21,318 bases of DNA from a virus (taxonomy: Duplodnaviria; Heunggongvirae; Uroviricota; Caudoviricetes): IMG/VR virus record IMGVR_UViG_2603880150_000003; one strand, written 5' to 3'. Within the stretch, counting starts at the first letter, position 1. Every line of letters starts with the position of its first letter. The notes beneath the pieces were generated by a model. The model had not been told where the DNA came from, searched no databases, and saw only the letters and a program-made list of their open reading frames with translations. This document shows, one piece after another, positions 1-21,318 of this stretch. A program made the position numbers and the translations under genes.

Positions 1-222
1 TCAGTATCTCGATAAGCGCAGAGAAATGATGCAGTGGTGGGCGGATTGGCTTGATGAAAAAGTGGAGTAATCCGGACCGTACTTCTTTATCCAGGCATAA
101 AGGCTGTGGGTGGTGATATCGAGACGTGTTGCAACGCTGGCAACAGAATAACCGCGATCAATAACCTGTTTGACTGCTTCAGTTTTAAACTCTTCGGGAT
201 AACGCTTACCGCTCATGGGCAC
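1..222 (-). CDS. IS3-family transposase OrfA (HTH_Tnp_1-like N-terminal region), probably degenerate; stop codon at 1-3
   Basis: Translation MPMSGKRYPEEFKTEAVKQVIDRGYSVASVATRLDITTHSLYAWIKKYGPD matches the helix-turn-helix pattern of IS3-family OrfA proteins; the C-terminal 20 residues look unrelated, suggesting decay. Opposite orientation to the neighbouring IS fragment. Confidence 0.55.
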   Translation of the reverse strand: MPMSGKRYPEEFKTEAVKQVIDRGYSVASVATRLDITTHSLYAWIKKYGPDYSTFSSSQSAHHCIISLRLSRY

Positions 223-264
223 CTCTCTTTAAGCCATCTTAAATGACTCTGAGGTGTCTGTTAA

Positions 265-732
265 ACCCGTGGCGATTCAAAACTGCGTGTTACGTTCGCC
301 CTGGACTGTTGCGATCGTGAAGCCATAGACTGGGCCGCAAGCACGGGAGGTTACGATAAAGCGACAGTGCAGGATGTCATGTTAGGAGCGATAGAAAAAC
401 GCTTTGGCGATAAAGTACCGGAACAGTCCATCCAGTGGCTGACAGATAACGGTTCAGCGTATAGAGCGCATGAAACACGGCAGTTCGCCAGAGAGTTGAA
501 TCTGGAGCCCTGCACAACGGCAATCAGCAGTCCTCAGAGTAATGGAATGGCAGAAAGGTTCGTGAAAACGATGAAGGAAGACTACATCGCGTTCATGCCG
601 AAACCGAATGTAAGAACAGCATTGCATAATCTTGCAGTGGCGATCGAACATTACAATGAAAACCATCCGCACAGTGCGCTGGGTTATCGATCTCCGCGAG
701 AATATCGACGTCAGCGGGTAACGTTAACTTAA
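265..732 (+). pseudogene. IS2-like (IS3 family) transposase OrfB, C-terminal DDE-domain fragment
   Basis: In-frame translation from about 265 (..[82 protein letters not shown]) resembles the C-terminal catalytic region of IS2 InsD as I recall it; the N-terminal two thirds are missing, apparently cut off by the adjacent IS fragment. Confidence 0.6.
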
Positions 733-769
733 GATACACCCCCTGTCTGGAAATAAGGGGGCAAGAACA
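265..769 (+). mobile_element. Truncated IS2-like element, right end retained (terminal inverted repeat about 741-769)
   Basis: Sequence after the OrfB stop (..ccctgtctggaaataagggggcaagaaca) resembles the IS2 right terminal repeat (GTCTGGAAATATAGGGGCAAATCCA from memory) and ends in CA directly before the stop codon of the regulator gene at 774. Confidence 0.5.
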
Positions 770-773
770 ATGA

Positions 774-1526
774 TCAGATTCCCTGGTGAGTAAGAATTTT
801 ACTTTCTGAACTCCTCTGAGAGTATTGACTTGGAGAAACACCAAAATAACGTCTAAATACATAAGTAAAGTATGAGACACTGGCATAACCACAGACCTTA
901 GCTACTTTACTAATAGGATAACAACGAGTGCTGAGTAAATATTCAGCCATTTGCATCCTCTCATCAAGTATGATCTTACTGAATGATACCCCCTCTTCTT
1001 TCAATTTCCTCTTTAGTAAACTTTCGCTGAGATATAATCTTGATGATATATCCTTAAGACGCCATGGTGCAGATAAATCCGTATGAATAATCGTTTTAAC
1101 TTTAGCCCCTGTGCTTTTCAAACATTCAAACAGAAATACTCCAAATTGTTTTTCAGAAGAAAATGCAGAGAGACATGTAAAAGCAATAGACTCATCAAAA
1201 ATTTCTATGTATTCAGCACAGTGATTAGCCCAACTAATTAATCCTTTAATTAAACTGAAGTCAGCAAAGTTTATTTTTAAATAAGATGGATATTCCCTAC
1301 AATCAGAAATATCCCTTAAGTTATTAGCTTTCAAATAGCGACTAATAAACTCAGCGCCAAAATCCGCCACTATCACTCTTTCAGGATATGTCAGGAAAAA
1401 ATCTCTAGAGCTAGAGTCGACAAGTACAGATGAACCTCTCTCCAGAAACACACTCTCTTTTCCGAAATAAACATCAAAGGACTCCAAAATCAATATAACT
1501 GAACATGTAGTTGCCATATCATCCAC
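774..1526 (-). CDS. AraC/XylS-family transcriptional regulator (AppY/YdeO/GadX-like), low-GC gene
   Basis: 250-aa ORF; C-terminal region (..WRLKDISSRLYLSESLLKRKLKEEGVSFSKIILDERMQMAEYLL..CGYASVSYFTYVFRRYFGVSPSQY) has the double HTH signature of AraC-family regulators and resembles YdeO/AppY. Markedly AT-rich relative to the prophage genes. Confidence 0.8.
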   Translation of the reverse strand: MDDMATTCSVILILESFDVYFGKESVFLERGSSVLVDSSSRDFFLTYPERVIVADFGAEFISRYLKANNLRDISDCREYPSYLKINFADFSLIKGLISWANHCAEYIEIFDESIAFTCLSAFSSEKQFGVFLFECLKSTGAKVKTIIHTDLSAPWRLKDISSRLYLSESLLKRKLKEEGVSFSKIILDERMQMAEYLLSTRCYPISKVAKVCGYASVSYFTYVFRRYFGVSPSQYSQRSSESKILTHQGI

Positions 1527-2101
1527 CCAACTTAACTGAAACCAGGATGAAGTATATGCATATAAAGTTCACTTTGCCAAACTTCAGTATAAAAAACCAC
1601 ATAAAAAATAGGGTGTGATAAAAAACACCGTAACAATAAAGCAAAGGATTATAAATTCCGTTACAGTTACAAATGATACTCAAGAAACAATTCCTTAGGA
1701 AAAACTTATTTACAGCCAATAAGTAAGACACTTATATGATATCAAGTTTTCATAAAACATAACTAGGCTAAATAGCTGCGCCTAATACCGCTACACTTTT
1801 GCCAGCCCATATTTGCCTCCGGGTATTGACCCCTTCTCTACGCAACTTCAGTTCCCACCACCAACTTTGCGGCAGCTTTGTAGGATCAATGTCTAAAAGA
1901 ATAATGGTGACCGATAAGAAAACGACTGAATAACTGCAAATTTTCGCTCAAAACCTTCCTGTCAGATCCATAGCGAATCAAGTGCTGAATGTCACAGTAT
2001 CAAACAGAAAACAGTGACGATCTAACTCTTCAAGAATATTCTACGATTGTTCTGTTTAGGAAAAGCAAGGCGGGAAGTCGGGAGATAAGTCATTGATAAA
2101 G

Positions 2102-2163
2102 TGGCGGAGAGAGGGGGATTTGAACCCCCGGTAGAGTTGCCCCTACTCCGGTTTTCGAGACCG
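2102..2163 (-). other. Orphan 62-nt 3' fragment of tRNA-Ser(CGA) (serU-type), likely att-site remnant
   Basis: Reverse complement CGGTCTCGAAAACCGGAGTAGGGGCAACTCTACCGGGGGTTCAAATCCCCCTCTCTCCGCCA matches the 3' 62 nt of E. coli tRNA-Ser(CGA) including the CCA end; the match stops abruptly inside the anticodon stem, so no complete tRNA is present. Confidence 0.8.
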
Positions 2164-2906
2164 ATGATACAGAGTCGAAAAATCAAAGAGTTAAAAATTT
2201 TTCTTGGAATAAATGTCTTAAAATCGTACACGAAAAATCAATGAATTACATAACATTAAAGAAGAATATTCCAAGCCTTCTTGATGCTACCACCTGTTTT
2301 CAGGTGTCATTCAGACGTGATTTGCCCCAGATTGGGAAAGCACGCTTTTTTCTCAGCTATCGTCCTCTTATTTTGCCGTTACATTTCTTTTTGCACTCTA
2401 ATGATTAATTTACAATAATAATATCGGTAATTATTGAGTAATAATAAATTGATTATTGCAAATGTAATTTAATTCCATCTTCGCGTTATATTCCAATCTT
2501 TAATCTCCGCATGGAACAAGTTGCATGCGTGACTATATTAAGACAACTTATAACCACCAAAACATTTGCTTTGCAAGCAAAAACAGTGACCATTGACTCT
2601 AAGAAAATTCCGATCTATTGTTAGGGTCATCAAAGTTACTTAACAGTATTCCGAAATGAAAATACAAAGCAAGCTAATTGTCTTATTAAACATTATCATT
2701 GCATTTATATTATTTGAGCTTTTAGCTCAAAAATTTGGTTTGAGTACATTATTTTAAAGCAAGATAAACAATATCGGGCACTCTAGTTTTTATAATTAAC
2801 AATTAAACGTCCATAAAATGTTATTTACTTTTCTTCGCTATTGTCATATCTTAATATAGTGGCTTACGCCACTCTACTTTCATCACATTTTGTACGTTTA
2901 TGTACT

Positions 2907-2939
2907 CGCCATGAAGCTCTTTCATGGCGATTTTTTATT
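2907..2939 (+). terminator. Candidate intrinsic terminator (9-bp stem cgccatgaa/ttcatggcg, loop gctct, then attttttatt)
   Basis: Perfect inverted repeat followed by a T-run on the + strand, inside AT-rich non-coding DNA between the tRNA fragment and tfa. Confidence 0.3.
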
Positions 2940-3022
2940 CTTAATCCAAGAACATACTCCTTACCTATAGCAAAATCACTTTTTGAACAAAAGAATAACG
3001 TATTTAGGTAATCATTACGAAT

Positions 3023-3604
3023 TTACCCTATAGGTGCTACTGGCCATTCAATATCCGGTGCAGTTGTTGTATTAACACGGTTCAGCAACACCCGATACTT
3101 CTTCCAGGCTTCCAGCAACGAGGTTTCTTCCTCCGTTGCAATTTCCAGATCTGCAGCATCCTGAAGCGGCGCAATATGCTCACTGGCTACCTGCATCAGG
3201 CTGTTTTTTGTTTCTTCCGCCTCCCGGATCCGGAACAGTTTTTCTGCTTCTGCATCTTTCACCCAGGCTGTGCCGTTCCACTTCTGATATTCCCCTCCCG
3301 GCGACAACCAGGTAACATTTTCCGGTAACGGACCGAGTTCAGAAATAAATAACGCGTCGCCGGAAGCCACGTCATAAACCGTTTTACCCCGATGGTCTTC
3401 AACGAGATGCCACGATGCCTCATCACTGTTGAAAACAGCCACAAAGCCAGCAGGAATATCTGGTGGTGCAATATCGGTACTGTTTGCTGGCAGACCTGTA
3501 TGAGGCGGAATATATGCGTCACCTTCACCAATAAATTCATTAGTTCCGGCCAGCAGATTATAAATTTTTATGGTCCGTGGTTGTTCACTCATTCTGAATG
3601 CCAT
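3023..3604 (-). CDS. tfa: Tail fiber assembly protein Tfa (lambda Tfa-like)
   Basis: 193-aa translation [51 protein letters not shown].. is near-identical to lambda Tfa as recalled; start overlaps the stf stop by 1 nt. Confidence 0.9.
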
Positions 3605-6600
3605 TATGCAAGCCTCACAATATAGTTAAATGCGATGTTTTTGACGGTGTTTTCCGCGTTACCCGCAGCGTTAACGGTGATGGTATGTCCATGTGAGCCA
3701 ATCGCAACGGAGTGCGTATGAGCACCAATACCGACAGTATGTGCATGTGCGCCTGCGCTTGCAGCAGTGCCGGACAGCGAGTGGGTATGAGCACCATCTG
3801 ATGATGTCTTCCCTGCATTACGAGTCTGGCCACTACCGCTTGTTGTGCTCATAATCCCCGCGCTTAGATTTGAAATCGCAGTATAACCATTAGGAAAAAT
3901 GCTCGTGTTCGTGCCACCAAATGCACCGGAACTCTTGTGTTGGTGCGCACCGGCACTATTTGCTGTCCCGCTAATACTATGGGTATGTGCACCAGTGTTA
4001 TTCGTGGATTTGGTTCCGTAATCAAACGACGATGTGGTTTTCGTCCCCAAATCCGTACTGGATGCGCTGGCGCTGTGGGTGTGCGATTTAATGCCGTCCT
4101 GTTCCTGAGACAATACGGCACGACCACTGGCGGGCTTGCCCTTAATCGTCCAGCCACGCATATCAGGGATCACGCCTGACGGATAAGCAACTGCAAGTTT
4201 CGGGTATGCAGATTTGTCAAAAGTCTGCCCCTGCATCAGGGCATAGCCAGACGGAACGGTATCTGATGGCCACGGGATTGGTGCGCCGACTGGATAAAAC
4301 TCTGCAGGAGGATGAGCCGAGGTGTAAAGCTGCGCCCACGGCGACCAGTTTGCGTCGATCGTATCCCGTCGTGAACGAATAAATGCCGGAGCATGAGCAC
4401 CGCTTGTACCACTCCAGCCGATGAGTAACTCACCTTCGCCAACGGCTGTCATCCCTTTCAGGTGAATGATATTTCCATACGCTGTTGGATATCCGTTGTT
4501 ATACACCTCGTATAACTCAAGACCTGTTGCCCCCTGCGTATTGTCTGTCAGCGCGGTTACCCGACCTTTTGAAGCCAGATTAACTGATGATACTGCTGTT
4601 CCACCTGACGGTAATGCCCCAATCTCTGATGCCGTTGGCTTATTTCTGGAGTTATAGTCCCTTCGCCAGCCAGGTGAATAATCTGTTCCGTGATTAATAT
4701 AGGTAAACTGGGCGTTAGTTGTTCCACCACCAGTGGAGGTGGTCGGTGTGGTAATGCGGATCGTCATCGCTGACTTTATCCCCATTACTTCAATGACAGC
4801 TCCGGCGAGATGAATATTACCGCAGCCAGTATCAGTAATGATTTTATTATTGCCATAAGACCAGGAACCCTTGCACATCCAGTATGGATGGTTAAATGCT
4901 CCCTGAGAATCCAGCCACTCGATAAACTGTGCAGTCGTCCAGTTTCCTGTTGTTGTGCTTACTGACCCACCGAAGGCACGGCAGGCACCAATATTTTTCG
5001 TAAAGGTGTCTTTGCCAGGGATATCCGCACCGTTCTGATCTTTCTGCAGACGTTTCTCAGCATTGTCATTGGCTGCTTTTACTGCCTTTGGCGTTGCCGC
5101 CAGCGTTTCAGACGTGCTGTTGGTCGCGCTGCTTAGCTGGATTATCCCTTTCTGTGCTGTCGTTGCATCCTGTGCGGTGTATTTCCCGTTAGCCAGGTCA
5201 TACGCGGCCTTAACGGCTTTTGGTGTTGCCGCCAGTGACTCGGAAGTGCTGTTAGTCGCACTACTGAGCTGTACTATCCCCTTTTTCGTCGTGCTCGCAT
5301 CCTCAAGCGCCACGGCGGATGCAATATCCTCTGCCCGTTTTGCCGCTGTCTCAGCGCGCGTTGCTGCAGATTCCGCCGTACTTTTGCTCTGAGCTGCTGC
5401 CGTCGCACTACCAGCAGCCTCTGTCGCCTTCGTGGATGCCGTCGTGGCGCTGCCCTTCGCTGCTGACGCCTGTCTGGTCGCCTCATCTTTTGAAGCAGAC
5501 GCCGATGATGCCGATGACGCCGCCGAACTGGCGGACGATGCCGCTGCCGTTTTTGAGGATTCTGCACGGGTTTCCGAGGCTTTCGCGTTCGTTTCGGATG
5601 TCATCGCTGCGGATGCAGACCTCGCTGCTGCGCTGGCCTGTTCAGCGGCTTCGCCAGCCTTCGTTGTGGCTGTTGAAGCGGATGATGCGGCGCTTTCGGC
5701 CGATTTTCCGGCTGCGGTGGCACTGACTGAGGCCTGCCCGGCACTTGTTGACGCGGCACTGGCAGACGACGCAGCCGCTGTTTTTGAGCCTGCCGCAGCT
5801 GAGGCGCTCTGTCCCGCTGCCGTCTCAGAAGACCTGGCGTTCGTCTCGGACGTTTTTGCCGCCTTCGCGGAATTTCCTGCCGCCGTTGCCGAGGAAGCGG
5901 CACTACTGGCGCTTGATGATGCGTTCGTTTCTGATGATTTTGCCGCTTCTTTTGAGGCCGCCGCATCCCGGGCCGAGGTCGCAGCTTCTGATGCCTTCGT
6001 GGTCGCGGTGGATGCAGATGTGGCTGCTGATTGTTGTGACGCTGAAGCATTCGTTTCTGACGTTTTCGCCGCACCGGCACTGGTGGCCGCCGCGCTTTTT
6101 GAGGACTCTGCAGCGGCAGCACTTTTTGATGCTTCAGTGGCCTTTGTTGATGCCGTTCCTGCGCTGGAAGACGCTGACTGAGCCGACGACGCGGCCTGTC
6201 CGGCTGACGTGCTGGCTGCGCGTGCTGAGTCCGCAGCATCAGCCGCATGGGTTGCCGCCTCACGGGCTGATGTGCTGGCATCACTGGCTGACTTCTTCGC
6301 GGCTGCCGTGTTCTGTGCCACCGCGGACGCGTTACGCGCCACCTCTTCCACCATCAGTTCAAAACGGCGCAGTGCCTCAGGACGGGCATCATCCTCCGTC
6401 ATGGCACCGAGAAAATCATTCAGCGTACCGGGTTGAGAATCTTCATACACGGTGATGGTCCCGGCATGTGACGGCGGGAATCCTTCCACCAACAGAATAA
6501 CGCTGTACTGACCGTACTCCACATCCATGCTGTAACGCCCGGCTTCATCCGGATTCTCTGAGCCCACCGTGTTCACCACCACCGTGGTGCTGTTACGTCT

Positions 6601-6684
6601 GGCTTTCAGCTGAATGGTGCAGTTCTGTACCGGTTTTCCTGTGCCGTCTTTCAGGACTCCTGAAATCTTTACTGCCATATTCAC
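3604..6684 (-). CDS. stf: Side tail fiber protein Stf (StfR/lambda Stf-like), 1026 aa, with long Ala/Ser/Thr-rich region
   Basis: N-terminus [64 protein letters not shown].. matches Rac/lambda side tail fibers; contains tandem [27 protein letters not shown] motifs and a C-terminal His-rich GAHTHSxSGTA repeat region. Confidence 0.9.
5085..5290 (-). repeat. Tandem ~120-bp repeat inside stf encoding the duplicated SATNSTSE(S/T)[11 protein letters not shown] motif
   Basis: Two near-identical DNA blocks (about 5085-5165 and 5205-5285) are visible on the + strand; both translate on the - strand to the conserved tail-fiber motif. Confidence 0.6.
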
Positions 6685-9834: not shown

Positions 9835-10128
9835 ATGAAAAAAATGTTGTTTTCTGCCGCTCTGGCAATGCTTATTACAGGATGTGCTCAACAGACGTTT
9901 ACTGTTGGAAACAAACCGACAGCAGTAACACCAAAGGAAACCATCACCCATCATTTCTTCGTTTCGGGAATTGGACAGGAGAAAACTGTTGATGCAGCCA
10001 AAATTTGTGGCGGCGCAGAAAATGTTGTTAAAACAGAAACCCAGCAAACATTCGTAAATGGATTTCTCGGTTTTATTACTTTAGGCATTTATACTCCGCT
10101 GGAAGCGCGTGTGTATTGCTCACAATAA
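9835..10128 (+). CDS. bor: Bor lipoprotein (serum-resistance moron)
   Basis: MKKMLFSAALAMLITGCAQQTFTVGNKPTAVTPKETITHHFFVSGIGQEKTVDAAKICGGAENVVKTETQQTFVNGFLGFITLGIYTPLEARVYCSQ matches lambda Bor; lipobox LITGC; antisense to the lysis genes as in lambda. Confidence 0.85.
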   Translation: MKKMLFSAALAMLITGCAQQTFTVGNKPTAVTPKETITHHFFVSGIGQEKTVDAAKICGGAENVVKTETQQTFVNGFLGFITLGIYTPLEARVYCSQ

Positions 10129-11475: not shown

Positions 11476-11902
11476 AAGCTGTGTGACGAAGTAACCACTC
11501 TTAACAGCATAACCAATTTTTTACGTACGTAAACCACTAAATGATATTTGCGAGAATGCTACCGAGTATTGAAAACACCACTACAAATACATAAGAAAAT
11601 CTCAACAAATAACCAACAAATAATTTCCAGTGTTATTTTTAGCCGGTTTAAATTGAACCTTCAAATTATAGAGCACTTATAAATAACAGCCGTTAATATA
11701 AATTGGCTAACAGATTTATTTTTATTCAGCCAAGAGCCATGAATAGGATTCGATAGAAAAAAGTTCAGATAAAAATAGAGATCTACTTCACAAATCAAAC
11801 GAGAAACCAAAACTTACATCTTGAAATAATCACATTGATTAGATGAATATTTATCGCGCAGTGACATCATTTTTTAATAATAGTTCAAAAAAAGGGCTCA
11901 CG

Positions 11903-13000
11903 ATGAAAAAATTAACAGTGGCAATTTCTGCTGTAGCTGCATCAGTACTGATGGCGATGTCTGCTCAGGCAGCTGAAATTTATAATAAAGACAGTAACAA
12001 GCTGGATCTGTACGGGAAAGTTAATGCTAAGCACTACTTCTCCTCTAATGATGCAGATGATGGTGATACTACTTATGCCCGTCTTGGCTTCAAAGGTGAA
12101 ACCCAAATCAACGATCAACTGACTGGTTTCGGTCAGTGGGAATATGAATTCAAAGGCAACCGCGCTGAATCTCAAGGCTCCTCCAAAGACAAAACCCGTC
12201 TTGCATTTGCAGGCCTGAAATTCGGTGACTACGGCTCCATCGATTACGGCCGTAACTACGGTGTAGCATACGACATCGGCGCGTGGACTGACGTCCTGCC
12301 AGAATTCGGTGGTGACACTTGGACTCAAACCGACGTGTTCATGACTCAACGTGCAACTGGTGTTGCAACCTATCGTAACAACGACTTCTTTGGTCTGGTT
12401 GATGGTCTGAACTTTGCTGCTCAGTACCAAGGCAAAAACGATCGTAGCGATTTCGATAACTACACTGAAGGTAACGGTGATGGCTTCGGTTTCTCTGCTA
12501 CCTATGAATACGAAGGATTCGGTATCGGTGCAACTTATGCGAAATCTGATCGTACCGACACTCAAGTTAATGCAGGGAAAATTCTTCCTGAAGTATTTGC
12601 TTCCGGTAAAAATGCAGAAGTTTGGGCCGCAGGTCTGAAATATGACGCTAACAACATTTACCTGGCCACTACCTATTCTGAAACCCAGAATATGACTGTA
12701 TTTGCTGATCACTTCGTTGCTAATAAAGCCCAAAACTTCGAAGCTGTTGCACAATATCAGTTCGATTTCGGTCTGCGTCCGTCCGTTGCTTACCTGCAAT
12801 CTAAAGGTAAGGATCTTGGAGTATGGGGCGATCAGGACTTAGTCAAATATGTTGATGTAGGTGCAACCTATTACTTCAACAAAAATATGTCTACTTTCGT
12901 TGATTACAAAATCAACCTGCTTGACAAAAATGACTTCACTAAAGCACTCAGTGTAAGCACTGATGACATCGTTGCTGTAGGTCTGGTTTACCAGTTCTAA
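11903..13000 (+). CDS. nmpC: Outer membrane porin NmpC/OmpD/Lc (OmpC family), apparently intact
   Basis: [23 protein letters not shown] signal peptide, then [23 protein letters not shown].. and C-terminal ..VAVGLVYQF, the general-porin signature; SD aaaggg upstream. The listed ORF starts 20 codons upstream but 11903 fits the signal peptide. Convergent with Q, as for nmpC in DLP12. Confidence 0.9.
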
Positions 13001-18633: not shown

Positions 18634-18852
18634 ATGTACTTGACACTTCAGGAGTGGAACGCACGCCAGCGACGCCCAAGAAGCCTTGAAACAGTTCGTC
18701 GATGGGTACGCGAGTGCAGGATATTCCCTCCTCCGGTTAAGGATGGAAGAGAGTATCTGTTCCACGAATCAGCGGTAAAGGTTGACTTAAATCGACCAGT
18801 AACAGGTAGCCTTTTGAAGAGGATCAGAAATGGGAAGAAGGCGAAGTCATGA
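18634..18852 (+). CDS. xis: Excisionase Xis
   Basis: MYLTLQEWNARQRRPRSLETVRRWVRECRIFPPPVKDGREYLFHESAVKVDLNRPVTGSLLKRIRNGKKAKS matches lambda Xis (72 aa); overlaps the int start. Confidence 0.9.
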   Translation: MYLTLQEWNARQRRPRSLETVRRWVRECRIFPPPVKDGREYLFHESAVKVDLNRPVTGSLLKRIRNGKKAKS

Positions 18853-19900
18853 GCGCCGGGATTTACCCCCTAACCTTTATATAAGAAACAATGGATATTA
18901 CTGCTACAGGGACCCAAGGACGGGTAAAGAGTTTGGATTAGGCCGAGACAGGCGAATCGCAATCACTGAAGCTATACAGGCCAACATTGAGTTATTTTCA
19001 GGACACAAACACAAGCCTCTGACAGCGAGAATCAACAGTGATAATTCCGTTACGTTACATTCATGGCTTGATCGCTACGAAAAAATCCTGGCCAGCAGAG
19101 GAATCAAGCAGAAGACACTCATAAATTACATGAGCAAAATTAAAGCAATAAGGAGGGGTCTGCCTGATGCTCCACTTGAAGACATCACCACAAAAGAAAT
19201 TGCGGCAATGCTCAATGGATACATAGACGAGGGCAAGGCGGCATCAGCCAAGTTAATCAGATCAACACTGAGCGATGCATTCCGAGAGGCTATAGCTGAA
19301 GGCCATATAACAACAAACCCGGTCGCAGCCACTCGCGCTGCAAAATCAGAGGTAAGGAGATCAAGACTTACGGCTGACGAATACCTGAAAATTTATCAAG
19401 CAGCAGAATCATCACCATGTTGGCTTAGACTTGCAATGGAACTGGCTGTTGTTACCGGGCAGCGAGTTGGTGATTTATGCGAAATGAAGTGGTCTGATAT
19501 CGTAGATGGATATCTTTATGTCGAGCAAAGCAAAACAGGCGTAAAAATTGCCATCCCAACAACATTGCATGTTGATGCTCTCGGGATATCAATGAAGGAA
19601 ACACTTGATAAATGCAAAAAGATTCTTGGCGGAGAAACCATAATTGCATCTACTCGTCGTGAACCGCTTTCATCCGGCACAGTATCAAGGTATTTTATGC
19701 GCGCACGAAAAGCATCAGGTCTCTCCTTCGAAGGGGATCCGCCAACCTTTCACGAGTTGCGCAGTTTGTCTGCAAGACTCTATGAGAAGCAGATAAGCGA
19801 TAAATTTGCTCAACATCTTCTCGGGCATAAGTCGGACACCATGGCATCACAGTATCGTGATGACAGAGGCAGGGAGTGGGACAAAATTGAAATCAAATAA
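18830..19900 (+). CDS. int: Integrase Int (lambda-type tyrosine recombinase)
   Basis: 356 aa MGRRRSHERRDLPPNLYIRNNGYYCYRDPRTGKEFGLGRDRRIAITEAIQANIELFSGHKHKPLTARINSDNSVTLHSWLDRYEKILASRGIKQKTL.. near-identical to lambda Int; 3' end points at the att core. Confidence 0.95.
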   Translation: MGRRRSHERRDLPPNLYIRNNGYYCYRDPRTGKEFGLGRDRRIAITEAIQANIELFSGHKHKPLTARINSDNSVTLHSWLDRYEKILASRGIKQKTLINYMSKIKAIRRGLPDAPLEDITTKEIAAMLNGYIDEGKAASAKLIRSTLSDAFREAIAEGHITTNPVAATRAAKSEVRRSRLTADEYLKIYQAAESSPCWLRLAMELAVVTGQRVGDLCEMKWSDIVDGYLYVEQSKTGVKIAIPTTLHVDALGISMKETLDKCKKILGGETIIASTRREPLSSGTVSRYFMRARKASGLSFEGDPPTFHELRSLSARLYEKQISDKFAQHLLGHKSDTMASQYRDDRGREWDKIEIK

Positions 19901-19954
19901 TGATTTTATTTTGACTGATAGTGACCTGTTCGTTGCAACAAATTGATAAGCAAT

Positions 19955-19987
19955 GCTTTTTTATAATGCCAACTTAGTATAAAAAAG
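19955..19987. other. Prophage-host att junction (int-proximal); 15-bp lambda core GCTTTTTTATACTAA on the - strand at 19973-19987
   Basis: ..gttgcaacaaattgataagcaatgcttttttataatgccaacttagtataaaaaagc matches the lambda P arm and core as recalled; the following aggc.. matches the bacterial arm (CTGCTTTTTTATACTAA.. in reverse complement). Confidence 0.8.
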
Positions 19988-20034
19988 CAGGCTTCAACGG
20001 ATTCATTTTTCTATTTCATAGCCCGGAGCAACCT

Positions 20035-21318
20035 GTGAACACATTTTCAGTTTCCCGTCTGGCGCTGGCATTGGCTTTTGGCGTGACGCTGACCGCCTGT
20101 AGCTCAACCCCGCCCGATCAACGTCCTTCTGATCAAACCGCGCCTGGTACCTCTTCTCGCCCGATTCTGTCGGCAAAAGAAGCGCAGAATTTCGATGCTC
20201 AACACTATTTTGCATCCCTGACACCAGGTGCTGCAGCGTGGAATCCTTCCCCGATTACCCTGCCTGCGCAACCTGACTTTGTTGTCGGCCCGGCGGGCAC
20301 TCAAGGTGTAACGCATACCACGATTCAGGCGGCGGTAGATGCGGCAATTATCAAGCGTACCAACAAGCGCCAGTATATTGCCGTGATGCCTGGTGAGTAT
20401 CAGGGAACGGTATATGTCCCTGCCGCTCCGGGTGGAATTACTCTGTACGGTACAGGTGAAAAACCGATTGATGTGAAGATTGGGCTTTCCCTTGATGGTG
20501 GCATGAGCCCTGCCGACTGGCGTCACGACGTCAACCCGCGCGGCAAATATATGCCAGGTAAACCAGCGTGGTATATGTACGATAGCTGCCAGAGCAAACG
20601 CAGCGACAGTATCGGTGTTCTCTGCTCTGCGGTCTTCTGGTCACAAAACAATGGCCTGCAACTGCAAAATCTGACCATCGAAAACACGCTGGGCGATAGC
20701 GTAGATGCAGGTAACCATCCGGCGGTGGCACTGCGTACTGATGGTGACCAGGTACAGATTAACAACGTTAACATTCTCGGTCGTCAGAACACCTTCTTTG
20801 TCACCAACAGCGGTGTGCAGAACCGTCTGGAAACAAATCGTCAGCCGCGTACGCTGGTGACCAACAGCTACATTGAAGGGGATGTGGATATCGTTTCTGG
20901 TCGCGGCGCAGTGGTGTTCGATAACACCGAATTCCGCGTGGTGAACTCACGTACTCAGCAAGAAGCGTATGTGTTTGCACCGGCTACGCTGTCCAACATT
21001 TACTACGGTTTCCTCGCCGTAAACAGCCGTTTCAATGCTTTCGGTGATGGTGTGGCGCAACTGGGCCGCTCGCTGGATGTTGATGCCAATACCAACGGTC
21101 AGGTGGTGATCCGTGATAGCGCCATCAACGAAGGTTTTAACACGGCTAAACCGTGGGCCGATGCGGTGATCTCTAATCGTCCGTTTGCGGGTAATACCGG
21201 CAGCGTAGATGATAACGACGAAATACAGCGCAATCTGAATGACACTAACTACAACCGCATGTGGGAATACAATAACCGCGGCGTGGGTAGTAAAGTGGTT
21301 GCAGAGGCGAAGAAGTAA
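20035..21318 (+). CDS. ybhC: YbhC, outer-membrane lipoprotein of the pectinesterase/acyl-CoA thioesterase family (host gene next to attB-lambda)
   Basis: 427 aa, lipoprotein signal MNTFSVSRLALALAFGVTLTAC, translation matches E. coli YbhC as recalled; higher-GC chromosomal-type sequence. Confidence 0.9.
   Translation: MNTFSVSRLALALAFGVTLTACSSTPPDQRPSDQTAPGTSSRPILSAKEAQNFDAQHYFASLTPGAAAWNPSPITLPAQPDFVVGPAGTQGVTHTTIQAAVDAAIIKRTNKRQYIAVMPGEYQGTVYVPAAPGGITLYGTGEKPIDVKIGLSLDGGMSPADWRHDVNPRGKYMPGKPAWYMYDSCQSKRSDSIGVLCSAVFWSQNNGLQLQNLTIENTLGDSVDAGNHPAVALRTDGDQVQINNVNILGRQNTFFVTNSGVQNRLETNRQPRTLVTNSYIEGDVDIVSGRGAVVFDNTEFRVVNSRTQQEAYVFAPATLSNIYYGFLAVNSRFNAFGDGVAQLGRSLDVDANTNGQVVIRDSAINEGFNTAKPWADAVISNRPFAGNTGSVDDNDEIQRNLNDTNYNRMWEYNNRGVGSKVVAEAKK

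What the first reader, a model, noticed from the sequence alone, without database searches (positions are those of the whole stretch)
774..2100. Low-GC AraC/XylS regulator moron downstream of the tail fibers, with a long AT-rich upstream region
The 250-aa regulator resembles the AppY/YdeO/GadX group (acid-resistance and virulence regulators) and sits where appY lies in DLP12 (after the tail-fiber genes at the prophage edge). Its base composition is far more AT-rich than the phage genes, and about 575 bp of AT-rich sequence lies upstream, typical of H-NS-silenced horizontally acquired regulators. Its targets would be chromosomal, making it a candidate lysogenic-conversion regulator.
Basis: partly seen in the sequence, partly recalled or inferred. 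Interest (0 to 1): 0.5.

Follow-up and report, generated by a model that had tools for sequence, protein, structure and literature searches.

The report
patE, a known prophage acid-resistance regulator

Summary
The ORF is real and intact. It lies on the minus strand at 1517..774 and encodes 247 aa from an ATG; the 250-aa GTG start is unlikely. It has 35% GC and a C-terminal AraC double-HTH domain. It is 246/247 aa identical to ECs0287 of O157:H7 Sakai prophage Sp1 (CP-933H/OI-8). That gene is the published PatE (z0321), an RpoS-dependent activator of gadE, gadBC and hdeAB and a repressor of LEE.

Its nearest K-12 paralogues are YdeO (35%), GadW (33%) and AppY (28%), so it is not an orthologue of any of them. 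The same tfa-patE-IS-attP-int arrangement occurs at 99% identity in the isolated lambdoid phages mEp332, ev099 and PhiR70_1. It is therefore a transmissible b-region moron, analogous to appY in DLP12.

The "575-bp AT-rich upstream region" is a mosaic:
- Only the proximal 251 bp (30% GC, with a conserved promoter-like TTGGCA-18-TATACT) belongs to patE.
- Next comes a 55-nt IS630 end.
- Then 278 bp of native E. coli serU downstream flank.
- Then the 3' 62 nt of tRNA-Ser(CGA), an old attR junction.

H-NS silencing was not testable. Novelty: already known.

The parts
774..1517 (-). patE coding sequence (247 aa, ATG start, TGA stop). AraC/XylS regulator with an N-terminal YdeO/GadW/AppY-type domain and a C-terminal double-HTH domain (aa ~138-238).
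   Evidence: ORF. RefSeq CDS WP_000246056.1 in the identical AH21 locus. Pfam. 246/247 aa identical to Sakai ECs0287, differing at E131G. PHROG phrog_1450 at 4e-95. The modelled DNA-binding domain matches GadX 3mkl with TM 0.91.
1522..1528 (-). Shine-Dalgarno-like GGGTGGA, 4 nt before the ATG.
   Evidence: Sequence. Conserved in the 84% and 54% homologues (alignment A3).
1551..1580 (-). Promoter-like site TTGGCA-18 nt-TATACT (10 of 12 matches). This is the probable patE promoter.
   Evidence: Consensus scan. Both hexamers and the spacing are conserved upstream of the 84% (L009) and 54% (L010) homologues, although those genes sit after the Q gene. That it functions as a promoter is inferred.
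1518..1768 (-). patE-proximal regulatory region, 251 bp at 30% GC. This is the only truly AT-rich upstream DNA that travels with the gene.
   Evidence: Composition. Homology with the upstream region of the 84% homologue runs over about 250 bp and stops near here.
1769..1823 (-). Remnant of the right end of an IS630-family insertion sequence (about 55 nt, including the terminal inverted repeat GCGCAGCTATTTA).
   Evidence: Megablast hit to the 3' end of an IS630-family transposase gene and the element end on plasmid pJNE23-001_1. 48/52 nt identical, and the terminal repeat matches that element's left end.
1824..2101 (-). 278 bp of native E. coli chromosomal DNA from immediately downstream of serU (the B' arm of an old attR).
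   Evidence: 97% identical to the K-12 serU locus. Present at the serU locus in nearly all of 5426 genomes.
2102..2163 (-). 3' 62 nt of tRNA-Ser(CGA) (serU nt 29-90). This is the att core of a serU-integrating phage, not a functional tRNA.
   Evidence: Alignments to K-12 serU. ARAGORN calls the K-12 gene tRNA-Ser(cga) and finds no tRNA in the window. Homology with Sakai Sp1 begins exactly here.
2164..3022 (.). AT-rich (31% GC) P arm and b-region of a serU-type lambdoid phage, lying between tfa and the att core.
   Evidence: Over the ~70 nt adjoining the core that were aligned, it matches (one mismatch) the attR arm of a lambdoid prophage integrated at serU in strain HCM-27C-1. Unrelated to the corresponding flank in Sakai Sp1.
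1..769 (.). IS3-family remnants: an rve-domain fragment at 367..732 (+) and an orfA HTH fragment at 1..222 (-). They begin about 4 nt after the patE stop codon.
   Evidence: Pfam rve_3 and HTH_Tnp_1. Sakai annotates 'ISEc48 Family: IS3 partial' starting 4 nt after ECs0287. The sequence is collinear in alignment A1.
3023..6684 (-). Context: tail-fibre assembly gene (3023..3604) and side tail-fibre gene (3604..6684) of the prophage.
   Evidence: ORFs. Pfam Caudo_TAP 5e-42. RefSeq annotation.

Best explanation
The ORF is an allele of patE, the prophage-encoded AraC-like regulator first described in EHEC EDL933 (z0321, prophage CP-933H/OI-8).

Shown here:
- It is a two-domain AraC/XylS protein of the YdeO/GadW/AppY/GadX group.
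- It is one residue different from the O157 protein.
- It is carried as a roughly 1-kb low-GC unit (251 bp upstream plus the CDS) in the non-essential b region (tfa ... attP-int) of lambda-like phages that integrate at att-lambda. In this window that phage is a degraded prophage.

Taken from the literature for the O157 protein:
- Its expression depends on RpoS and rises at entry to stationary phase.
- It activates the chromosomal acid-resistance genes gadE, gadB, gadC and hdeAB, acting through a cis element at -132 to -45 of hdeA.
- It lowers expression of LEE genes.

Inferred:
- In this host it is transcribed from its own conserved promoter (TTGGCA-18-TATACT, 1580..1551), independently of phage late transcription.
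- It binds AT-rich operators through its two HTH motifs and raises GAD/Hde-dependent acid resistance of the lysogen. That makes it a lysogenic-conversion regulator.

The DNA further upstream is a historical scar with no proposed regulatory role. An IS630 end is joined to 278 bp of serU flank and the serU att core. This shows the module was once assembled at the attR junction of a serU-integrated prophage and later moved into other phages.
For: Identity:
- 246/247 aa identical to Sakai ECs0287.
- The flanks are about 99% identical from the tRNA fragment through the IS3 remnant.
- PatE is z0321 on OI-8 and is AraC-type. It activates gadB, gadC, gadE and hdeAB and represses LEE (review PMC10877973).
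- Z0321, a 'putative regulator (prophage CP-933H)', is 6-fold RpoS-dependent (PMC2907692).
- ECs0287 is induced at the stationary-phase transition (PMC2241611).

Family:
- Pfam HTH_AraC and HTH_18.
- NCBIfam YdeO model over the full length at 148.9 bits, GadX at 111 bits.
- Identities to K-12 paralogues.
- The modelled DNA-binding domain superposes on GadX 3mkl (TM 0.91, rmsd 1.7 A). The best full-length matches are Rns, CsvR and ToxT.

Phage-borne and transmissible:
- Window 1-3700 is 99% identical to isolated phages mEp332 and ev099. PhiR70_1 matches 1-3151.
- ev099 shows the order tfa - patE - IS fragments - int - xis.
- Lambda and HK629 share the tfa gene but lack the module.

Own promoter:
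- The hexamers and Shine-Dalgarno sequence are conserved in homologues that sit in a different phage slot.

Distribution:
- The gene is at >=99% nt identity in 642 of the 1586 matching records; 654 of 5426 complete E. coli genomes hold >=80% of the gene.
Against: - No expression or binding data exist for this allele or this strain.
- The window allele has E131 where the O157 protein and almost all family members have G. E131 is shared by the isolated phages ev099 and mEp332.
- 14 of 15 nucleotide differences among five alleles are non-synonymous. That argues against strong recent purifying selection.
- No terminator follows the gene, because an IS3 remnant begins about 4 nt after the stop codon.
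- The link z0321 = ECs0287 rests on annotation text and position, not on the z0321 sequence itself.
- The primary PatE papers (Bender 2012, Yang 2015) could not be read here.
Confidence: 0.9

Rival explanations
1. The gene is a silent or decaying passenger. It would be kept off by H-NS or impaired by G131E, contributing nothing to this host, and the whole locus would be prophage debris between IS scars.
For: - The prophage is heavily degraded: J and lom fragments, and IS elements.
- The gene is bracketed by IS remnants.
- Nearly all allele differences are non-synonymous.
- E131 replaces a glycine that is nearly invariant in the subfamily.
- The upstream DNA and the CDS are AT-rich, as expected of H-NS targets.
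- appY, the analogue, is reported to be H-NS-regulated.
Against: - The reading frame is intact in a 1788-member 90%-identity cluster.
- The E131 allele is carried by viable isolated phages.
- The O157 allele is expressed (log2 12.4 on arrays) and RpoS-dependent.
- YdeO and AppY do not have glycine at the aligned position (sequences).
- No enrichment of the H-NS nucleation motif.
Confidence: 0.08
2. It is an orthologue of AppY or YdeO that was relocated to another prophage, with the regulon of those proteins (hya, app/cbd and so on).
For: - Same prophage-edge position as appY.
- The best NCBIfam model is YdeO, aligned end to end.
- Shared MxxxCSVI N-terminus.
Against: - Only 28% (AppY) and 35% (YdeO) identity.
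- The YdeO score of 148.9 is far below the equivalog cut-off of 348.
- No AppY model match appears among the 25 best listed.
- The gene is 99.6% identical to a separately named and characterised regulator.
Confidence: 0.01
3. It mainly regulates phage functions such as tail-fibre or lysis genes, rather than host genes.
For: Homologues recur at fixed phage positions: after tfa, and between Q and the holin.
Against: - Both slots are classical moron positions, occupied elsewhere by stx, bor and lom.
- Related lambdoid phages lack the gene.
- The published targets of PatE, PsrB and AppY are chromosomal acid-resistance genes.
Confidence: 0.01

Closest known systems
PatE (z0321 / ECs0287) of EHEC O157:H7, prophage CP-933H / Sp1 (Bender et al. 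2012, as summarised in PMC10877973)
   Same: 246/247 aa identical. Same upstream module (serU fragment, serU flank, IS630 end, 251-bp proximal region) and same IS3 remnant downstream, at about 99% nt identity.
   Different: - One substitution (E131 here, G131 in O157).
- The carrier is a lambda-type prophage at att-lambda (ybhC/ybhB) rather than Sp1 at thrW.
- DNA to the left of the tRNA fragment is unrelated: an AT-rich P arm after tfa here, a GIY-YIG gene in Sp1.
- Whether this host carries LEE was not examined, so LEE repression by PatE may not apply here.
AppY of cryptic prophage DLP12 (E. coli K-12)
   Same: - AraC-type, about 250 aa, low GC.
- Lies a few hundred bp after a tail-fibre-assembly gene at the prophage edge.
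- Prophage-encoded activator of gadE and the AR2 genes.
- Shares the N-terminal CSV motif.
   Different: - Only 28% identical.
- Different prophage and attachment site (argU).
- AppY also controls hya, app and RpoS stability, which was not examined for PatE.
YdeO, GadW and GadX (chromosomal acid-resistance AraC regulators)
   Same: Best NCBIfam models. 33-35% identity, full length for YdeO and GadW. The GadX DNA-binding domain is the closest solved structure. They converge on the same target, gadE.
   Different: Scores are far below the equivalog cut-offs (148.9 vs 348; 111 vs 500). Those genes are core chromosomal genes with their own inputs (EvgAS, GadY and others), whereas patE is phage cargo.
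PsrA / PsrB of O157:H7 prophages (OI-50, OI-57)
   Same: Prophage-borne AraC-like activators of gadE and hdeA that lower type III secretion. The two-copy 237-aa O157 homologue presumed to be Psr shares the family N-terminus.
   Different: About 37% identity. The presumed Psr copy examined (L020) and its Stx2k-phage homologue lie downstream of the Q/antiterminator region next to phage tRNA genes, upstream of the lysis genes, not after the tail fibres. That the 237-aa protein is PsrA or PsrB is inferred from copy number and strain, not verified.
Rns / CsvR / ToxT (fatty-acid-responsive AraC virulence regulators)
   Same: Best full-length matches by sequence and by fold among solved structures.
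   Different: About 20% identity. The N-terminal domain of the model is only of moderate or low confidence (pLDDT about 70, and below 50 for residues 71-129), so a ligand pocket cannot be claimed.

Membership tests
AraC/XylS transcription factor family | C-terminal ~100-aa DNA-binding domain with two helix-turn-helix motifs | tested here: met
   Pfam HTH_AraC 60.7 bits (cut-off 26.6) and HTH_18 58.5 bits (cut-off 33.6) at aa 161-238. The model's C-terminal domain has pLDDT >90 and superposes on GadX 3mkl with TM 0.91 and rmsd 1.7 A.
PatE (z0321/ECs0287) | Sequence identity with the O157:H7 CP-933H/Sp1 AraC-type regulator | tested here: met
   246/247 aa identical to ECs0287. ECs0287 is the only AraC-type gene of Sp1 and is annotated as the CP-933H AraC-type regulator. 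z0321 = PatE on OI-8.
PatE (z0321/ECs0287) | Same genetic module (flanking DNA) | tested here: met
   About 99% nt identity from the tRNA-Ser fragment to the IS3 remnant (alignment A1).
PatE (z0321/ECs0287) | Activates gadE, gadBC and hdeAB and raises acid resistance; RpoS-dependent expression | not testable with these tools
   Known only from the literature on EDL933. No data exist for this allele.
YdeO (NCBIfam NF007407 equivalog) | Score at or above the curated cut-off of 348 bits | tested here: not met
   148.9 bits, aligned 1-235 against 1-233 of 253. 34.7% identity.
GadX (NCBIfam NF007432 equivalog) | Score at or above the curated cut-off of 500 bits | tested here: not met
   111.4 bits, C-terminal half only.
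AppY | Orthology-level sequence similarity to K-12 AppY | tested here: not met
   28.4% identity over 236 aa. Only the genomic position is analogous.
Phage moron | Lies in a non-essential region of a functional phage genome, and is present or absent among otherwise related phages | tested here: met
   Lies in the b region between tfa and int of ev099, and in the same tfa-patE-IS arrangement in mEp332 and PhiR70_1. Lambda, HK629 and HK630 share tfa (97%) but lack the module.
Phage moron | Base composition distinct from neighbouring phage genes | tested here: met
   35% GC (CDS) and 30% (proximal upstream), against 54% for stf+tfa.
Phage moron | Own promoter and terminator | tested here: inconclusive
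   A promoter-like site is conserved across homologues but no transcript data are available. No terminator was found, because the IS3 remnant starts about 4 nt after the stop.
H-NS-silenced xenogeneic gene | AT-rich DNA bound and repressed by H-NS | tested here: inconclusive
   AT-richness and A/T-tract density are met (2.4 tracts per 100 bp against 0.9 in stf). The nucleation motif (recalled from memory) is not enriched. H-NS binding cannot be tested here.

The most novel reading that the evidence does not exclude
The 62-nt serU fragment with its 278-bp flank may be more than a scar. It could act as a portable secondary attachment or recombination site. serU-specific phages could then integrate into, or recombine with, whatever prophage carries patE, passing the regulator from phage to phage.

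Support:
- Two unrelated left arms (a lambdoid P arm here, a GIY-YIG-gene arm in Sp1 and MB06233) are joined to the same module at exactly the same nucleotide of the tRNA core.
- The left arm found here is also found at genuine serU attR sites.
- No genome has intact serU next to patE.
- There is experimental precedent for a phage using a resident prophage's attR as attB: Sp10 into Rac (PMC2669165).
Probability: 0.2. Interest if true: 0.4.

Novelty: already known. Interest (0 to 1): 0.12.

Why it matters
It matters little as a discovery. patE is a described, experimentally characterised prophage regulator of the GAD/Hde acid-resistance network, and the family (PatE, PsrA/B, AppY) is a textbook case of prophage regulators wired into host stress circuits.

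Three points are useful:
1. RefSeq and UniRef label the protein only 'AraC family transcriptional regulator', so this locus can now be named.
2. patE is not confined to EHEC. It occurs in about 12% of complete E. coli genomes and in viable lambda-like phages, so acid-resistance tuning can spread by lysogeny among commensal and avian or bovine strains.
3. The upstream anatomy (att core, chromosomal flank and IS scars) is a clear fossil record of how a moron was assembled and moved. It also warns against reading every AT-rich intergenic stretch as regulatory DNA.

Tried and rejected
- Intact tRNA at ~2100-2160: ARAGORN finds none in the window. Rfam gives only sub-threshold tmRNA and plastid-UTR matches to the T-arm region. 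It is a 3' fragment.
- patE as the native neighbour of serU: a chimeric query (mtfA-serU 5' half plus the module) found no genome among 5426 covering both parts.
- The 250-aa GTG start: rejected in favour of ATG 1517.
- AppY or YdeO orthology: rejected.
- H-NS nucleation motif (TCGWTWAATT, recalled from memory, up to 2 mismatches): one hit in 1501-2000 and no enrichment. Inconclusive.
- Small ORFs in 2164-3022 (33 aa and 55 aa): no Pfam or PHROG match.
- Primary papers on PatE and PsrB (PMC3416394, PMC4288888) and the old EDL933 record NC_002655.2 are not held. The z0321 = ECs0287 link was therefore made through annotation text.
- Structure prediction: the N-terminal domain is too uncertain (pLDDT below 50 for residues 71-129) to say anything about ligand binding.
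- Database names for the exact protein: none says PatE.

Full report
**Observation**

The minus strand carries an intact ORF at 774..1526. RefSeq annotates the identical sequence in E. coli AH21 from the ATG at 1517, giving 247 aa (WP_000246056.1, 'AraC family transcriptional regulator').

The ATG is the better start for three reasons:
- It is preceded by GGGTGGA with a 4-nt spacer.
- The GTG at 1526 lies inside that Shine-Dalgarno sequence.
- It yields MATTCSVI, with the same spacing as the MxxVCSVI N-termini of YdeO, AppY and GadW.

Pfam finds HTH_AraC (1.3e-16) and HTH_18 (8.6e-16) at aa 161-238. The CDS is 35.1% GC, against 54.1% for the tail-fibre genes and 47.6% for the whole window.

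**What the gene is**

- NCBIfam's best model is the YdeO equivalog, aligned end to end (148.9 bits). This is far below its cut-off of 348. GadX is next at 111 bits against a cut-off of 500.
- BLASTP against K-12 proteins taken from a K-12-like genome gives YdeO 34.7%, GadW 33.5%, AppY 28.4%, GadX 35.4% (C-terminal half) and EnvY 38.6% (C-terminal half).
- The gene is at >=99% nt identity in 642 of the 1586 matching records, including O157:H7; 654 of the 5426 complete E. coli genomes hold at least 80% of it.
- In O157:H7 Sakai it is ECs_0287, at the right end of prophage Sp1 (thrW). It is followed by an 'ISEc48 partial' repeat and then the P4-like Sp2. The two proteins differ at one residue, E131 here and G131 in Sakai.
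- The review PMC10877973 states that PatE is encoded by z0321 on OI-8 and is AraC-type. It activates gadB, gadC, gadE and hdeAB through a cis element at -132..-45 of hdeA, and it down-regulates six LEE genes.
- PMC2907692 lists Z0321, a 'putative regulator (prophage CP-933H)', as 6-fold RpoS-dependent.
- PMC2241611 shows ECs0287 induced at the stationary-phase transition.

The window gene is therefore an allele of patE. No database name for the exact protein says so.

**Structure**

PDB sequence search gives the GadX DNA-binding domain (3mkl, 3e-24), then CsvR, Rns and ToxT.

An AlphaFold2 model built from 14 homologues has mean pLDDT 68.6. The DNA-binding domain is above 90, the N-terminal beta-rich part is about 70, and residues 71-129 are below 50. 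Foldseek returns Rns, CsvR and ToxT as full-length matches (TM about 0.40) and the GadX DNA-binding domain at TM 0.91 and rmsd 1.7 A.

The two-domain AraC architecture is supported. Nothing can be said about a ligand pocket.

**Genomic setting**

The window is nearly the whole of a degraded lambda-type prophage at att-lambda:
- The lambda att core GCTTTTTTATACTAA lies at 19974..19988.
- It sits next to a 356-aa ORF at 18830..19900 (+). I read this as the lambda-type integrase because its length equals that of the annotated integrases of AH21 and ev099 and it adjoins the att core; it was not scanned itself.
- The 427-aa ORF at 20035..21318 (+) is taken to be ybhC, by matching length and position in AH21.
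- In AH21 the other end abuts ybhB-bioA.

On the minus strand the order is stf (6684..3604), tfa (3604..3023), 859 bp of 31%-GC DNA, the tRNA fragment, the patE module, then IS3-family remnants.

Window 1-3700 is 99% identical to the isolated phages mEp332 and ev099, and PhiR70_1 matches 1-3151. In ev099 the order is tfa - patE - transposase fragments - int - xis. Lambda, HK629 and HK630 share the tfa gene at 97% but lack everything to its right in this orientation.

So patE is cargo in the non-essential b region of viable lambdoid phages. This satisfies the positional and compositional criteria for a moron. The analogy with appY is accurate: in K-12, appY starts 545 bp after a tail-fibre-assembly pseudogene at the DLP12 edge.

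**The upstream region is a mosaic**

Read from the start codon outward on the minus strand:
1. 1518..1768, 251 bp at 30% GC.
2. 1769..1823, the last ~55 nt of an IS630-family element. It is 48/52 nt identical to the right end of the IS630-family copy on pJNE23-001_1 and ends with that element's terminal repeat GCGCAGCTATTTA.
3. 1824..2101, 278 bp that are 97% identical to the DNA immediately downstream of serU in K-12. This DNA is present at the serU locus in essentially every E. coli genome.
4. 2102..2163, nucleotides 29-90 of tRNA-Ser(CGA).

Homology between this locus and Sakai Sp1 begins exactly at the first nucleotide of the tRNA fragment and runs through patE into the IS3 remnant. To the left, the two prophages are unrelated.

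The left arm in the window, over the ~70 nt next to the core that were aligned, matches (one mismatch) the attR arm of a lambdoid prophage genuinely integrated at serU in strain HCM-27C-1.

A chimeric query joining the serU 5' side to the module found no genome, among 5426, with intact serU followed by patE.

The simplest reading is as follows. The block 2163..1824 is an old attR junction (att core plus B' arm) of a serU-integrating phage. patE was joined to it through an IS630-associated rearrangement. An IS3-family element later landed about 4 nt after the stop codon. The resulting module has since been exchanged among phages.

Whether that exchange used homologous recombination within the 340-bp serU homology, or site-specific recombination at the core, cannot be decided. 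Use of a resident prophage's attR as attB has been shown experimentally for Sp10 and Rac (PMC2669165).

**Promoter**

The only strong sigma-70-like match on the patE strand close to the gene is TTGGCA-18-TATACT at 1580..1551, with 10 of 12 matches.

Homologues at 84% (P0007) and 54% (P0011) identity lie in a different slot, between the Q antiterminator and the holin. Their upstream regions nevertheless conserve both hexamers, the spacing and the Shine-Dalgarno sequence. For the 84% homologue, about 250 bp of upstream homology ends close to where the IS630 scar begins here.

This supports a self-contained unit of roughly 1 kb with its own promoter. That it functions as a promoter, and any sigma-S preference, are inferences consistent with the published RpoS dependence.

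**The family in phages**

- PHROGs places the protein in phrog_1450 (4e-95, 'unknown function').
- Relatives at 53% identity sit between Q and S in several 'Lambda_ev' phages.
- A relative at 36% sits just upstream of three phage tRNA genes that precede stx2 in phiSTEC1575-Stx2k.
- O157:H7 genomes carry two copies about 92% identical to that Stx2k-phage gene. These are presumably psrA and psrB, which are published as 90% identical to each other. The copy examined is 37% identical to PatE.

**H-NS**

The proximal region and the CDS are AT-rich, with 2.4 and 1.8 A/T tracts per 100 bp against 0.9 in stf. The H-NS nucleation motif, recalled from memory, is not enriched, and no binding data could be found. 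The claim stays untested. appY is reported to be H-NS-controlled.

**Alleles**

E131 is shared by the att-lambda lineage (AH21, ev099, mEp332, MB06233). G131 is shared by the Sp1 lineage and by almost all more distant relatives.

Across five alleles, 14 of 15 nucleotide differences change the amino acid. The numbers are small and the alleles are not independent, but this is not the signature of strong purifying selection.

**Verdict**

This is a low-GC AraC-type, YdeO/GadX/AppY-like regulator carried as a moron beyond the tail-fibre genes, with chromosomal targets.

It is the already characterised patE, so the novelty is nil. The one point of independent interest is the fossil serU att junction and the IS scars that bracket the gene.

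Noticed in passing
window 2102..2163 (-) and 1824..2101 (-): The 3' 62 nt of tRNA-Ser(CGA) (serU) followed by 278 bp of native serU downstream flank, embedded in a prophage at att-lambda. Homology with O157 Sp1 starts exactly at the tRNA fragment. No genome has intact serU next to patE.
   Followed up: yes
window 1769..1823 (-): A ~55-nt right-end remnant of an IS630-family element, with its terminal inverted repeat, fused directly to the serU flank. It marks the true distal limit of patE-associated DNA.
   Followed up: yes
window 2164..3022: 859 bp at 31% GC between tfa and the att core, not annotated in AH21. On the + strand it holds a promoter-like site (2593..2621), a 33-aa hydrophobic ORF (2656..2757, MKIQSKLIVLLNIIIAFILFELLAQKFGLSTLF), a 55-aa ORF (2241..2408, annotated as hypothetical gp28 in ev099) and a strong terminator-like hairpin (2906..2930). 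No Pfam or PHROG match. It could encode a small membrane peptide or a small RNA.
   Followed up: partly
window 3063..3200 (-): Rfam family IS009 matches above its gathering score (160.8 bits against 117) inside the 3' end of the tail-fibre assembly gene.
   Followed up: no
window 774..1517 compared with L003, L012, L013, L016, L017: 14 of 15 nucleotide differences among five patE alleles are non-synonymous. E131 marks the att-lambda phage lineage and G131 the Sp1 lineage.
   Followed up: partly
window 18830..21318: Lambda att core GCTTTTTTATACTAA at 19974..19988, a 356-aa ORF taken to be the lambda-type integrase at 18830..19900 (+), and an ORF taken to be ybhC at 20035..21318. The window is almost an entire ~20-kb degraded lambda-like prophage at att-lambda. 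The otherwise identical AH21 locus has extra IS3-family insertions.
   Followed up: partly
L009 8001-8735; L010 8001-8735; L018 2501-3214; L019 2501-3232; L020 5001-5714: PatE-family genes at 84%, 54%, 53% and 36-37% identity occupy the other moron slot between the Q antiterminator and the lysis genes. In one case the gene lies just upstream of three phage tRNA genes that precede stx2k. The core promoter is conserved despite the different slot.
   Followed up: partly
window ~9836..10128 (+) and ~11843..13000 (+): Other cargo genes in the same prophage, according to the AH21 annotation: an Iss/Bor-type serum-survival lipoprotein, and a porin in a 31-33% GC stretch.
   Followed up: no
protein P0006 (308 aa): A variant of the gene, seen on 16 contigs, has a 3' frameshift. 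The protein reads through into the IS3 remnant and replaces the last ~17 residues.
   Followed up: no
L011 (NZ_CP146678.1, 64-kb circular 'plasmid unnamed3' of E. coli MS 69-1): patE with the Sp1-type left arm lies on a 64-kb circular record that carries baseplate and tail genes and pinE. This may be an episomal or excised phage, or an assembly artefact.
   Followed up: no
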